Source: Eledone cirrhosa | Taxonomy: Eukaryota | Length of the DNA stretch: 64,000 nt | Direction of reading: 5' to 3' | NCBI GenBank assembly: GCA_964016885.1 | Contig: OZ024761.1 | Span: 7,998,001-8,062,000, forward strand | Shown here: piece after piece, positions 39,031 through 46,429 of the stretch | Numbering within the stretch: position 1 is the stretch's first letter | Layout of the letters: the number at the start of each line of letters is the position of its first letter | Made by a program: the position numbers and the translations under genes | Notes under the pieces: generated by a model | Database searches by the model: none | Seen by the model: the letters and a program-made list of their open reading frames with translations, nothing else | Told to the model about the DNA's origin: nothing

Positions 39031-40370
39031 TATATATATATATATATTCAATATATTAAATAAAAGGAAACTATATTTATAAAACCCTATTTATTCTATT
39101 ATATATATTTCAAGGGAACCAAAACTTTGGTACGCTTTCATCATATAAAATACGAAGTGTGTTTTATAAATTTTGACATAAGAAGGGAAAATACCTTAAC
39201 GGTTCAAGTTTTCCTTGGATATATACATACATATACATATATATATATATATATGTATGCATAGTAATAATAATTGTTTTGAAGACTAAAATCCAAAGAG
39301 GGCTCGATAAGGGTAAATATATATCAAATATATAAGAACCGTAGAGCAAATATTTATTAAAATACGTATGTATATATATATGTATATATATATATATGTA
39401 TATAACAATATATATTGTCATGAAATATATATATTGCTTTGACTGCTCTTTCTAGCATACAGTAGAAAAAAACGGAAGTGGAGAAAATTGAAAAACTTCT
39501 TCTTTTTCCTCCTCTAACTTTTTAAACAAAAGAAAATTTTATATAAACAAAAACGAAATTTTTGTCACGAACGATAACTCGTCTCTGACTTAAATCCAAT
39601 TTTTGGATAAAAAAAAATGCGTGTGTGCAGTTTTCATATACTCACTTGTTATTACTAGTTAGTCCTTATTTTGGTTTGTTTTAGGGTCTTTGATTCCTAT
39701 TTCTAGCATGTCCGACCTTTTTCTGTTGTTCTCTATGCATGTATGAATAAATATATATATGTACATATATATGTATATATGTTATACATATGTATATATT
39801 ATATTATACACTAGCAATATATTGAGTAAATTTTATTTACTGTGGTTTCCCACCGACAGAGTGAGTCGCAGCTAATTGCATCTATTACCCTGATTAAGAG
39901 ATTTGACTGCTGTGTCTAGCAGGTTTAGAGTCTACTATTTTCCAAATATTTTTCCTTTACAACCTCCACTATGAACTTGATTTCAAATTACTGGGCGGTC
40001 GGTTGATAGTGGTAAACTAATATATCTACACCGGTAACTTAATTAGTGTTACACCGCTATTGCTCAAGTATAATCTATTTGGCATTCGAAAGGTAGTTTG
40101 TTATATCCTCTTAAATAGAGTATGTATACATACACGTATTCCTAAACAGTTTGACATTTATTCATAAGAGGTAATGGTCTCATTTAGACCCCGTCTCTTT
40201 TAGAATATATATACTCACAACACATCCATAAATTAATAATTTTCTTAATAATATGATATTAACGTTTTTTTTAACGAAAAAGCTTATTGTATGTGTAGTT
40301 ATACATGCATTGAATTTAATTTAAACACGCCGTTTGTGGCACAAATATTAATTATATTATTTTACATACA

Positions 40371-40409
<39 letters not shown>

Positions 40410-40739
40410 CATTCTTTGTGTAACTAGAGTTACAGGCGATTCGCCCCTCCTCCAACCTCTTGATACTGTGACAAGACGGTTTCAGTTAGGTTTTATTCCA
40501 GAATTAAAGCAACTGTACATTGTGAATAAAAGTAAGACCGAAAAGACTGTTACAGCATACATATTAACTTTATTGGCATATTAGAATTGTTTCAATATCG
40601 ATATCTTTGGGTATAATCATATATATATAGAGAGAGAGATAAATAGATGGATAGTGTGTGTGTGTGTATCTTTTATTTTTCACGTGAAATCAATATGCAA
40701 GCTGGCCCTGTGTCTTCATTTTAAAGTGACATATTTCTA

Positions 40740-40865
40740 CCTCCCGGTGATTTGAACTTAGTTTCAAGTTACTCGATGATATAATGAAGCGGAGAGACTA
40801 TAAAAACGCTACACCGGTGGCATATTTAGTTTACACCAGTACGAGGTGCATGAAAGAGGTAATGT
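40740..40865 (+). promoter_or_regulatory. Plus-strand paralogous promoter-like module
   Basis: TATAAAA at 40799 with Inr-like TTAGTT whose A lies ~30 nt downstream; GAG|GTAATG donor at ~40859. Confidence 0.4.
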
Positions 40866-40992
40866 TTTATTTGTCTTTTGTGTTACAGGATAACACTAGC
40901 TTAATTTGTTAAATTTATACTACATGTTTGTAATATATATTGTCAACATAGCTATGATTTCATCTCAATTAGTAATTTCAACTCTTCGGAGG

Positions 40993-41156
40993 TTACTGCT
41001 CACATTTCATCTCTTCCACTAAGACACTCTCCACAACCTTTCCTCTCCTCGTATCATCACCCAATGTTGTGTCAATCTCCACAAAGCGAAAGTTTCTCAT
41101 GTCTAACCCTTCTTGTCGAGAATGTCGGCTCCATGGAACTCCCTGTTTACTTCTTT
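40993..41156 (-). CDS. Candidate terminal coding exon of a repeat-borne microprotein gene (unit 1)
   Basis: Acceptor TTGTTTTTTACAG|; phase-1 frame xRSKQGVPWSRH...EEMKCEQ*; AATAAA ~125 nt after the stop (40866-40871); GC-richer than flanks. Confidence 0.5.
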
Positions 41157-44444: not shown

Positions 44445-44496
44445 TGAACATGACGAATCTACTGGAGATAGAAGACAACAAAAACAACCTGCCTAC
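44445..44496 (-). CDS. Candidate 52-nt start-codon exon (ATG TTC A|gtgagt); paralog at 45057-45108
   Basis: ATATTTCAG| acceptor and GTGAGT donor; the same length and splice positions are kept in the diverged paralog; phase matches the terminal exon. Confidence 0.45.
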
Positions 44497-44818
44497 CTGA
44501 AATATTATATGTTATGATATTAAATATATTTCTTGTACTGTCATGTTTTTCCTTTAAAACGCTTGAATCTGAATAAAGTCTAGGAAACTATTATATACTT
44601 TTGTTATATGATTATACTTAATTCTTTAACTTGACTTATTATTTCTAACTTTTATTATAAGGAATACAAACTTAATAAAATCCTATATCTGTATAAATAT
44701 AATTGTCTGTGTGAAAGTAAATAATATGTATTTTGACAACGAGTTGTAAAAAGCAAGCTCGTCAATCTAGAACAGTTCTACACTAACACAGACGGCAAAA
44801 GAAAAAAATAACCATTAC

Positions 44819-45030
44819 CTCTTACAAACGAATACCAAATTGAATATGTTTCCGAAATACCGGTGTAACACTAAATATATTACCGGGGCAACTAATTCAG
44901 TTTACCCTTTTATAAATCACTCCAGTCATTTCAAATCCTGGTCAGACTGCCGGGAATAAGAAAAAAAGTAAACCGTTTTCCGAAGTTTCTAAATCTTCTA
45001 AAAATAGTAGCCAAATCTCTCACTGTCTCC
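44819..45030 (-). promoter_or_regulatory. Promoter/first-exon-like module (TATAAAAGGG, CCGG hairpin, GAG|GTAATG donor)
   Basis: TATA at 44905-44914, donor at 44818; paralogs at 45386-45605 (-), 39850-40180 (+) and 40740-40865 (+). Confidence 0.45.
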
Positions 45031-45385
45031 AATGTATAATAAACTGTGACATTCACGGAACATGACGAATCTACTACAGATAGAAGACAAGAGAAACGAC
45101 CATCCTGCCTGAAATATTATCTGTTACGATATTAAATATATTTCTTCTGCTATCATGATTTTTTCTTTAAAACTTTGGAATCTCAATAACGTGGAGAAAA
45201 CTATTATATACTATTGTTATATAATTATACGTTAGTTTTAACTTCACTTATTATTTCTAACTCTTCTCATTAGATAGAATACAAAGTTAATAATAAAATC
45301 CTATATGTGTATAGATATAATGTGTGTGAAAGTATGGTAATAAGCTACAGTTATACACTAACTCAGACGACATAAGAGACATTAC

Positions 45386-45605
45386 CTCTAACGAACGAAT
45401 GCGAGACAGATTATGTCTCGGATATACCGGTGTAAAACTAAAAATGTTACCGGTGCAACAGTTTCAGTTTACCCTTTTATAGACACACTCCAGTCATTTC
45501 AAATCGTGTTCAGAGTACCGAGAATAAAAAAAAAAATAAAACCATTTGCCGAAGTATCTAAATCTACTAAAAGTAGCAGCCAAATCTCTCACTCTGTCTC
45601 CAATG
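45386..45605 (-). promoter_or_regulatory. Second promoter/first-exon-like module
   Basis: TATAAAA at 45475-45481; AG|GTAATG donor at 45385. Confidence 0.45.
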
Positions 45606-46429
45606 AGTAGTAAACGGTTACTCATATATACATAGAGAGACAGATGTGTTGGTATATATTAGTGTATATATATTGGTATTTATATAAATTTGCGTGTAAT
45701 TAAATGTATATTAGTCCATATATTCATATACAGTTATTCCCCGGTATTTGCGCGTGATACGGTCCTAGAGGACCCGAGTATATTGAAAAAGCGCGAACAT
45801 TGGAAGTGGTCCATAGAAATGCCTATAAACCACAAAATGTAACGTAAAATATAATAGAAATAGAGGAGCGCCTTATGAGAAGGGGTGTCCAATAGACCGG
45901 CAAATACGATGTATTGTTGTTAATAATTTAGCTTTAAAACAATATATATTGTCATGAAATATATATATTGCTTTCACTGCTCTTTCTAGCATACAGTAGA
46001 AAATAATCGGAAGTGGAGAAAATTGAAAAACTTCTTCTTTTTTCCTCCTCTAACTTTTCAAAACAAAAGAAAATTTTATGTAAACAAAAACGAAATTTTT
46101 GCCACGAATGATAACTCGTCTCTGACTTAAATCCAATTTTTGGATAAAAAAAAATACTTGTGTGCAGTTTTCATGTACACACTTGTTATTACTAGCTAGT
46201 CCTTCTTATTTTGTTTTGTTTTGGGGTCTTTCACTCCTATTGTCCGACCTTTTTCTGTTGTTCTCTATGCATGTATGAATAAATATATATCTATATATGT
46301 ACATATATATGCATACATTTTAATCTGTTCTTACTATAAATATTTGTTCTAGGGTATTTTATATATATATATATTTTATATATACATAAAATCCTTATCG
46401 AGCTCTCTTTGGATTTTAGTTTTCACATT

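What the first reader, a model, noticed from the sequence alone, without database searches (positions are those of the whole stretch)
39850..45610. Four paralogous promoter-like modules per unit, arranged convergently (2 plus, 2 minus)
Seen: the same module occurs forward at ~39850-40180 and, shorter, at ~40740-40865, and reversed at ~44815-45030 and ~45385-45605. Its longest form is GACAGAGTGAG...AGAGATTTG(A/G)CTGCT...GATTT(C/G)AAAT(T/G)ACTGG...GGTAAACT...CCGGT-N-TTAGT-N-TACACC...AGAG|GTAATG. The copies are well diverged, yet all keep the CCGGT...TACACC hairpin-capable core and a splice donor. The 40740 copy overlaps the poly(A) region of the - strand gene, so it would fire antisense through the coding exon. 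Inference: either convergent sense/antisense transcription (a dsRNA, siRNA/piRNA or ADAR substrate, relevant in cephalopods), or old nested long TIRs of a MULE/foldback-like element with inward promoters.
Basis: partly seen in the sequence, partly recalled or inferred. Interest (0 to 1): 0.7.

Follow-up and report, generated by a model that had tools for sequence, protein, structure and literature searches.

The report
Conserved promoter modules in convergent macrosatellite
A 6-7 kb stretch of DNA repeated about 150 times on one chromosome carries three or four diverged copies of one conserved gene-switch-like sequence facing each other, which likely start non-coding RNAs from both strands, but no RNA data were available to show it.

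Summary
The four modules are real (66-83% alike; two on +, two on -). They lie in unit 1 of an 8-unit, 6.9 kb tandem array, one of 11 arrays (145 units) on contig C22. The 'hairpin' core is a 23-bp-period direct repeat of the palindrome-bearing motif YTRCACCGGT, with no compensatory pairs. It is constrained: 3 of 89 core sites differ between subfamilies against 15.7% elsewhere (p about 2e-4). A downstream AG|GTA donor survives in 39 of 49 module types. The layout arose by tandem and inverted duplication; across the unit junction the modules face away from a second conserved block (E). It is not a MULE (no fixed ends, TSD or transposase), not a dispersed MITE and not this genome's U2 promoter, and no protein is kept family-wide. 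The same core recurs in composite repeats on C18/C20 and in a few solitary places. Best reading: RNA polymerase II promoter/first-exon cassettes of a two-strand, non-coding macrosatellite, working like human D4Z4/DXZ4. Transcription is inferred, not shown. siRNA is unlikely in molluscs; a piRNA role is open, and transposon orientation evidence is mixed.

The parts
39401..64000 (.). Tandem array of ~6.9 kb units (8 units in all, G000:C22 8.037-8.092 Mb; units 97.7-99.0% identical)
39425..39620 (+). First copy of block E (ETS-like CGGAAGTG at 39473-39480; motif names recalled); starts the array
39855..40130 (+). Module A: GGTAAAC 40011-40017, core 40026-40055, predicted donor at 40093; no TATA match
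40131..40250 (+). Local repeat of A's 3' part with a second donor-like site AGAG|GTAATG at 40171
40735..40900 (+). Module B: TATAAAA 40799-40805, core 40809-40837, predicted donor at 40859
40866..40871 (-). AATAAA inside module B, predicted poly(A) signal of the minus-strand transcript (9 of 11 B types, 3 of 28 other types)
40850..41156 (-). Predicted last exon of the minus-strand transcript (acceptor at 41157); holds a 17-codon frame (41156-41103) and a 35-codon ORF (41097-40990), neither kept family-wide
41338..41424 (+). Tail of a very abundant dispersed repeat (SINE-like; label recalled); absent from the aligned 6.2-6.3 kb units
42182..44322 (.). Internal direct duplication (42182-43030 versus 43157-44322, pieces 71-86% alike)
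43050..43190 (-). Fifth, partial module (3' part of A type, AGCG|GTAATG at 43123)
   Evidence: (score 71-73 against a random maximum of 40-51 for two of three queries; the third query did not exceed random)
44409..44496 (-). Predicted exon 2 behind module C (acceptor 44497, donor AGAC|GTAAGC 44408); its ATG is followed by a stop at codon 3 in this subfamily; homologous exon behind the C18 module
44770..45040 (-). Module C: TATAAAA 44914-44908, GGTAAAC 44906-44900, core 44891-44862, predicted donor 44818, predicted intron 44818-44497
45340..45610 (-). Module D: TATAAAA 45481-45475, GGTAAAC 45473-45467, core 45458-45429, predicted donor 45385, predicted intron 45385-45109; 600-bp tandem duplicate of the C block (76.5%)
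45735..45910 (.). Relic resembling a Tigger/pogo-type DNA transposon end (resemblance recalled, not tested)
   Evidence: sequence
45960..46155 (+). Block E between D and the next unit's A (CGGAAGTG 46008-46015, TGTAAACA 46079-46086); 12 of 174 sites differ between subfamilies; doubled as a palindrome in 6.2-6.3 kb units; relatives occur without modules elsewhere

Best explanation
The four modules are diverged copies of one conserved DNA cassette, likely an RNA polymerase II promoter with a short first exon and splice donor, that would drive spliced non-coding RNA from both strands of each unit of a 150-copy macrosatellite family. Shown: a core of two YTRCACCGGT motifs 23 bp apart is under constraint; A, B and C/D form separate lineages across subfamilies; C/D is a 600-bp tandem duplication; A is the inverted relative of C/D; units multiplied as homogeneous tandem arrays. 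Inferred: a sequence-specific factor binds the paired motifs (the first is within 1-2 mismatches of the RFX X-box in most types; identity unproven), helped by block E, which neighbouring D and A modules flank head to head. Transcription from C/D would splice at 44818 to 44497 and end at the AATAAA inside B; transcription from A/B would run antisense through that last exon as intron. The product would be overlapping nascent sense and antisense RNA acting on the array's own chromatin or feeding small-RNA production, most plausibly in germ cells (a guess by analogy).
For: Core constraint 3/89 versus 479/3048 background, binomial p 2.2e-4; 3-4/89 in all five comparisons, which share one branch. 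Lag-23 self-identity 0.80 versus at most 0.32 at other lags, over 49 module types; four tandem copies of the motif in L067. AGGTA 48-72 nt from the core start in 39 of 49 types; GT kept in 45 of 49 at the aligned column, median dinucleotide 24 of 49. The C18 module keeps donor, acceptor and exon 2 while the middle of the intron does not align. TATA match at a fixed place in most B and C/D types. B-enriched AATAAA on the opposite strand, 9 of 11 versus 3 of 28. Tree: A clade 99/97, B clade 98/98, C/D group weak at 82/71. The core is confined to this family and related repeats: 723 matches, control 0; of 467 exact matches 55 are listed before C22, 51 of them in C18/C20.
Against: No transcript, start site or chromatin data were seen. 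The 9-nt donor windows are not more conserved than background between subfamilies (6-8 of 27) and the upstream box is not significant (7 of 60). The 7.1 kb subfamily has lost C's donor and acceptor. A types lack a TATA match, and TATA-to-core distance differs between B (-10) and C/D (-23). Four isolated or array-edge modules (L067, L070, L082, L093) keep the core without AGGTA. The conserved A at position 6 breaks the X-box consensus and the second repeat fits poorly. Background conservation is uneven: 18% of 30-column windows have 2 or fewer differences.
Confidence: 0.55

Rival explanations
1. The cores are protein-binding sites that act without starting transcripts (enhancer, insulator or array-organising sites); donor and poly(A) look-alikes are inherited leftovers.
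For: The core is constrained while donor windows and the upstream box are not; isolated modules keep the core and lack the donor; DXZ4 units bind CTCF and act as insulators (PMC5687341, passages).
Against: Donor GT is the best-kept feature just downstream of the core across 49 types; donor, acceptor and exon 2 are shared with the distant C18 module; strand layout is fixed in all subfamilies examined.
Confidence: 0.17
2. The unit is an amplified, now largely decayed, small protein-coding gene (minus strand, ATG in exon 2, last exon KEVNREFHGADILDKKG*) with duplicated promoters; the plus-strand modules are the other half of an old inverted gene duplication.
For: ATG at a fixed place before a donor in exon 2; the 17-codon frame is open with the stop at the same place in 7 of 10 variants; pN/pS 0.3-0.5 for the 35-codon ORF in deep comparisons.
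Against: Stop at codon 3 in the 6.9 and 7.1 kb units, exon-2 donor lost and last-exon acceptor plus 17-codon frame deleted in the aligned 6.2-6.3 kb units; in-frame stop flagged in 6 of 8 units of the 6.63 Mb array, seen inside the ORF in the two read; ORF divergence not below background (p 0.11-0.23) and pN/pS about 1 or more in shallow pairs; no Pfam match; no intact parent among 150 hits.
Confidence: 0.13
3. The modules are old nested terminal inverted repeats of a MULE or foldback element with inward promoters that later formed tandem arrays.
For: Inverted relatives of 200-270 bp near both ends of a unit; plant MULEs with tandem TIRs and convergent TIR promoters exist (PMC3310237, passages); E is an inverted pair at the junction of 6.2-6.3 kb units.
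Against: Opposite arms are only 66-70% alike while each arm is conserved across subfamilies; B has no inverted partner; array ends fall at different unit positions; no clean TSD at the window array; no ORF that could be a transposase in the unit; modules occur unpaired on C1, C15, C21 and in one direction in C18/C20 repeats; E relatives occur without modules.
Confidence: 0.06
4. The modules are snRNA-type (SNAPc) or spliced-leader mini-genes, or RNA hairpin precursors.
For: The core recalls vertebrate proximal sequence elements (recalled) and is followed by a donor 50-70 nt later.
Against: Upstream regions of four U2 genes of this genome do not contain the core; no Rfam match at the modules; 0 of 5 predicted pairs show compensatory change; folding z from +0.2 to -2.0; no shared Sm-like site seen behind the donors.
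Confidence: 0.04
5. The unit is neutral amplified DNA; the core looks conserved only by chance or low local mutation rate.
For: Some background windows are as conserved as single cores (1.4% with no difference); no expression data.
Against: The core was named from the window's paralogs before the cross-subfamily test; it also survives where flanks no longer align (C1, C15, C21); ortholog-specific differences argue against conversion among modules.
Confidence: 0.05

Closest known systems
Human macrosatellites D4Z4, DXZ4 and RS447 (PMC5687341, passages; PMC4199704, abstract and outline)
   Same: Multi-kilobase tandem units; sense and antisense promoters inside each unit (D4Z4: from both sides of the ORF; DXZ4: bidirectional); long and small non-coding RNAs reported there.
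   Different: Those units are 50-71% GC and mostly single arrays; here about 31% GC, 11 arrays in three or more subfamilies, and all promoter candidates descend from one cassette that also recurs in other repeats. Transcription is shown there and not here.
MULEs with tandem TIRs and MuDR convergent TIR promoters (PMC3310237, passages)
   Same: Two related modules at each side of a unit, pointing inward.
   Different: No matched termini, no TSD, no transposase, not dispersed as whole elements, arms 30-34% diverged.
piRNA clusters (molluscan piRNAs: PMC6128900, passages and start of abstract)
   Same: In C18/C20 repeats the module points antisense through Helitron and LINE pieces.
   Different: The C22 unit is nearly free of transposon coding sequence; orientation bias does not hold at solitary modules; no small-RNA data.
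RFX X-box promoters (PMC2375033, passages)
   Same: First repeat within 0-1 mismatch of RYYNYY N1-3 RRNRAC in 34 of 49 types, against 11 of 432 background tiles.
   Different: No type matches the restricted consensus GYTRYY N1-3 RRHRAC exactly; the second repeat fits poorly; the paper itself warns that an X-box match is not predictive.

Membership tests
Macrosatellite with internal two-strand promoters (D4Z4/DXZ4 kind) | Head-to-tail array of multi-kilobase, near-identical units | tested here: met
   6.9 kb period, 97.7-99.0% identity; 145 units in 11 arrays
Macrosatellite with internal two-strand promoters (D4Z4/DXZ4 kind) | Promoter-type elements on both strands within each unit | tested here: inconclusive
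   constrained cores, donors and TATA-like matches on both strands; activity not shown
Macrosatellite with internal two-strand promoters (D4Z4/DXZ4 kind) | Sense and antisense transcripts, small RNAs | not testable with these tools
   see Tried and rejected
MULE / foldback with tandem TIRs | Closely matched terminal inverted repeats | tested here: not met
   A/D 69%, A/C 69%, B/C 70%; B has no inverted sister
MULE / foldback with tandem TIRs | Fixed termini and target-site duplication | tested here: not met
   array ends differ; the window array sits in a TA run with only a low-complexity overlap
MULE / foldback with tandem TIRs | Transposase in the element or a partner | tested here: inconclusive
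   none in the unit or among 65 flank ORFs; a partner elsewhere was not searched
High-copy dispersed MITE | Many scattered copies with unrelated flanks | tested here: not met
   723 core matches; listed ones cluster in C22 arrays and C18/C20 repeats, with 4 on C1, C7 and C15; only the first 100 places of each search are shown
snRNA-type (SNAPc) promoter | Shares the species' proximal sequence element | tested here: not met
   four U2 upstream regions lack the core; U1 and U6 not examined
Structured RNA / pre-miRNA | Conserved pairing with compensatory changes | tested here: not met
   0 of 5 pairs, 24 sequences; Rfam blank at modules
Uni-strand piRNA cluster promoter | Transposon pieces antisense to the promoter over a long stretch | tested here: inconclusive
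   antisense within 6.5 kb in L095 and in C18/C20 repeats, mostly antisense on C21, mixed on C1 and beyond 10 kb on C18, sense LINE in L067 by eye
Uni-strand piRNA cluster promoter | 26-30 nt, 1U-biased reads | not testable with these tools
   no small-RNA run available
Multicopy protein-coding gene family | ORF kept under purifying selection across copies | tested here: not met
Z-linked ampliconic array | Lies on the Z chromosome | tested here: not met
   Amnionless, Z-linked in O. vulgaris (10.1101/2024.12.09.627507, passages), maps to C28, not C22; one marker only, assumes synteny

The most novel reading that the evidence does not exclude
One reusable promoter cassette, present in some 700 copies, runs a dedicated small-RNA system in this cephalopod: facing pairs in the C22 arrays make overlapping precursors, and single-direction copies on C18/C20 read antisense through Helitron and LINE pieces to make piRNAs. 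It would be the first defined piRNA-precursor promoter motif in a mollusc and would name a transcription factor to test.
Probability: 0.15. Interest if true: 0.8.

Novelty: new variant of a known kind. Interest (0 to 1): 0.45.

Why it matters
About 3% of one chromosome (some 145 units of 6-7 kb in 31.8 Mb) is given to a repeat that keeps one short DNA motif pair under selection without keeping a protein. If the modules are promoters, they give a concrete cis-element and exact splice junctions to look for in cephalopod RNA, and a natural series (three versus four modules, donor kept or lost, E single or palindromic) for asking what two-strand transcription of a macrosatellite does. If tied to piRNAs, it would open how molluscs mark their piRNA precursors. 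Without RNA data it remains a well-supported anatomy with an inferred function.

Tried and rejected
RNA: no RNA holder listed. The four runs laid cover predicted introns and exons alike and showed no joint at the predicted splice sites among the joints displayed (24 more were hidden); they behave as DNA. Exact unit contigs had depth 100-119 in X2 and 175-196 in X1 against 7 and 3-4 on a single-copy flank: multi-copy in reads, but the tool warns that depth is no copy number, and these runs may be the source sample. Rfam: only microsatellite look-alikes and one weak tRNA hit outside the unit. SNAPc/PSE idea: rejected on U2. Hairpin RNA: rejected; the best sliding-window z-scores (to -4.8 among 134 windows folded below -14 kcal/mol, 25 shuffles each) were not checked for conservation. 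Z linkage: rejected on one marker. Transposon antisense bias: mixed. Cellular genes next to solitary modules: Pfam on 72 of 120, 63 of 88 and 65 of 74 candidate ORFs gave almost only transposon domains, plus one MFS_1 hit 21 kb behind the C21 module. Core pattern in metagenome contigs: 0. Two genome patterns were mis-spaced and gave 0. No homologue search outside this genome was run for the short ORFs. Earlier notes near or like this stretch: none. Paper searches showed no description of this array; the library lacks most subscription journals, and no supplements were read.
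Full report
Setting. From 39401 on it is a tandem array with a period near 6.9 kb; the first three units are 97.7-99.0% identical. A search with the unit's short ORF scored 150 of 157 candidates and returned 150 places: 145 in 11 arrays on C22 (8, 3, 8, 15, 12, 18, 9, 16, 11, 17 and 28 units), 2 further places on C22, 1 on C18 and 2 on C24 (a lower bound). 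Units come as 6.9 kb, 7.1 kb and 6.2-6.3 kb subfamilies, about 16% apart between the first and last.

Observation. The four modules are there, A and B on +, C and D on -, 66-83% alike with alignment z-scores of 7.6 to 34.7. C and D are parts of a 600-bp tandem duplication (76.5%); 6.2-6.3 kb units have only one of them. A tree of 50 module types groups A (99/97) and B (98/98) across subfamilies, joins A with the weakly supported C/D group (98/96) and leaves B apart. So the layout comes from an old A/B split, an inverted duplication giving A and C, and a later tandem copy giving D. A fifth remnant of an A-type 3' part on the minus strand near 43050-43190 fits this history. Across the unit junction D and the next A face away from each other around block E, which is doubled into a palindrome in the 6.2-6.3 kb units.

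The core. It is a direct repeat: identity of the first motif to the sequence 23 bp on is 0.80, at most 0.32 at other lags, and one locus has four copies in a row. Because ACCGGT is a palindrome, a direct repeat of it can always be drawn as a hairpin; RNAalifold on 24 cores finds 5 pairs, none with compensatory change, and folding z-scores of the four modules are -0.2, -0.7, +0.2 and -2.0. E is also constrained (12-17 of 174). Against this, the 9-nt donor windows (6-8 of 27), the upstream box (7 of 60), exon 2 and the 35-codon ORF are not. Over longer distances the donor does stand out: AGGTA follows the core in 39 of 49 types and GT holds its column in 45 of 49, against a median of 24 for neighbouring dinucleotides (the column count may be raised by the alignment). 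The first repeat is within one mismatch of the loose X-box consensus in 34 of 49 types, but never matches the strict one, and the second repeat fits poorly (consensus in PMC2375033, passages). The factor is unknown.

Predicted transcripts. On the minus strand C and D each have donor, a 322- or 277-nt intron and an acceptor. A distant module type on C18 keeps the donor, the acceptor and exon 2 with its ATG and GAC|GTAAGC donor, while the middle of the intron does not align. A last exon begins at 41156, and AATAAA at 40866-40871 lies in module B; 9 of 11 B types have it, 3 of 28 others. The exon would sit in B's first intron, so overlap would be mostly between nascent RNAs. No protein is kept: exon 2 reads M-S-stop in the 6.9 and 7.1 kb units, the aligned 6.2-6.3 kb units lack the exon-2 donor and the last acceptor with its 17-codon frame, the 35-codon ORF has pN/pS from 0.3 to 2.2, and a stop is flagged in 6 of 8 units of one array. 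A coding ancestor is possible. The 7.1 kb subfamily has lost both C's donor and its acceptor.

Elsewhere in the genome. A 30-letter pattern gives 723 matches with up to two mismatches, control 0; it misses the window's B. A looser exact pattern gives 467, of which 55 are listed before C22: 38 on C18, 13 on C20, 4 on C1, C7 and C15; a further one on C21 came. In the C18/C20 composite repeats examined the modules point one way and Helitron helicase (Pif1_2B) and LINE (RVT_1, PHD) pieces lie antisense behind them, but these are copies of few insertions. Around solitary modules orientation is mixed: mostly antisense on C21, a Penelope element in sense on C1, a LINE in sense in L067, and both directions beyond 10 kb on C18. 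Relatives of E, about 78% alike, occur on C1, C4, C17 and C18 with no module in the 21 loci scanned, so E has its own history as a repeat.

What it is not. Not a MULE or foldback: opposite arms are 66-70% alike, B has no partner, array ends differ, the window array shows no clean TSD and the unit has no transposase-sized ORF (MULE features from PMC3310237, passages). Not a dispersed MITE. Not this genome's U2 promoter. Not a known RNA family. Probably not Z-linked, as Amnionless maps to C28. siRNA output is unlikely, as molluscs including an octopus lack siRNA Dicer and siRNA-like reads (PMC12479628, passages); piRNAs are widespread in molluscs (PMC6128900, start of abstract and passages).

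Verdict. A real, constrained cassette, most likely a promoter with first exon, repeated on both strands of a non-coding macrosatellite family (0.55). It works like D4Z4 or DXZ4, where units carry sense and antisense promoters (PMC5687341, passages; PMC4199704, abstract and outline), but membership needs transcripts that could not be tested. It differs in being AT-rich, spread over 11 arrays, and in drawing all its promoter candidates from one cassette reused in other repeats. Also seen: PMC13282606 (passages; nothing on such arrays) and 10.1101/2024.12.09.627507 (part 1 of 5 and passages). Motif labels ETS, forkhead, Tigger, SINE and RLE are recalled, not from a call. Interest 0.45; the piRNA-promoter case has probability 0.15 and would deserve 0.8.

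Noticed in passing
G000:C18 25.0-25.1 and 34.9-35.8 Mb, C20 26.8-27.2 Mb (L071-L090, L098-L106): Composite repeats of roughly 10-40 kb made of a TCTC-rich minisatellite, Helitron and LINE pieces, an E relative and two or three module types all pointing one way, with the transposon pieces mostly antisense.
   Followed up: partly
L153-L172, e.g. L163 5570-5850: A family of ~300 bp E relatives (ETS-, forkhead- and GATA-like motifs, names recalled) bounded by direct copies of GACTGCTATTTCTAGCA, on C1, C4, C17 and C18 without modules; three copies at ~6 kb spacing at C18 11.77-11.78 Mb. The same short motif starts modules A, C and D.
   Followed up: partly
L014 6330-6710: In 6.2-6.3 kb units E forms a ~400 bp palindrome (two ~190 bp arms, spacer about 10 bp).
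   Followed up: partly
L137 685-1137 (G000:C21 18.465 Mb, +): MFS transporter-like ORF (PF07690, E 1.4e-5) 21 kb behind a solitary module on the same strand; link untested.
   Followed up: no
window 41715-41775 (-) and 42007-42160 (-): Two GC-richer stretches inside the unit that look like decayed tRNA-derived sequence (by eye); not found by Rfam.
   Followed up: no
window 38871-38947: Inverted repeat of about 35 bp arms next to a TA run; related sequence occurs elsewhere (L124, L038), probably a small mobile element.
   Followed up: no
L107-L120 (G000:C3 307.35-307.45 and 321.6 Mb, C13 36.17-36.18 Mb): U2 snRNA genes in tandem arrays with about 2.2 and 2.5 kb period; upstream regions share an ATCAGT-containing box near -60.
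   Followed up: partly
G000:C28 56.35-56.39 Mb: Amnionless exons; by synteny with O. vulgaris C28 may be the Z chromosome.
   Followed up: no
window 1-38000: Flank holds LINE pieces with RT, endonuclease and PHD domains (11662-14280 +, 1870-2688 -, 21767-22234 -, 33224-33985 -), a Penelope-like piece (3216-4888 -), a 48-bp minisatellite (26818-27257) and long microsatellites.
   Followed up: partly
L067 4400-4600 (G000:C22 18.93 Mb): Old module with four tandem copies of the core motif.
   Followed up: partly
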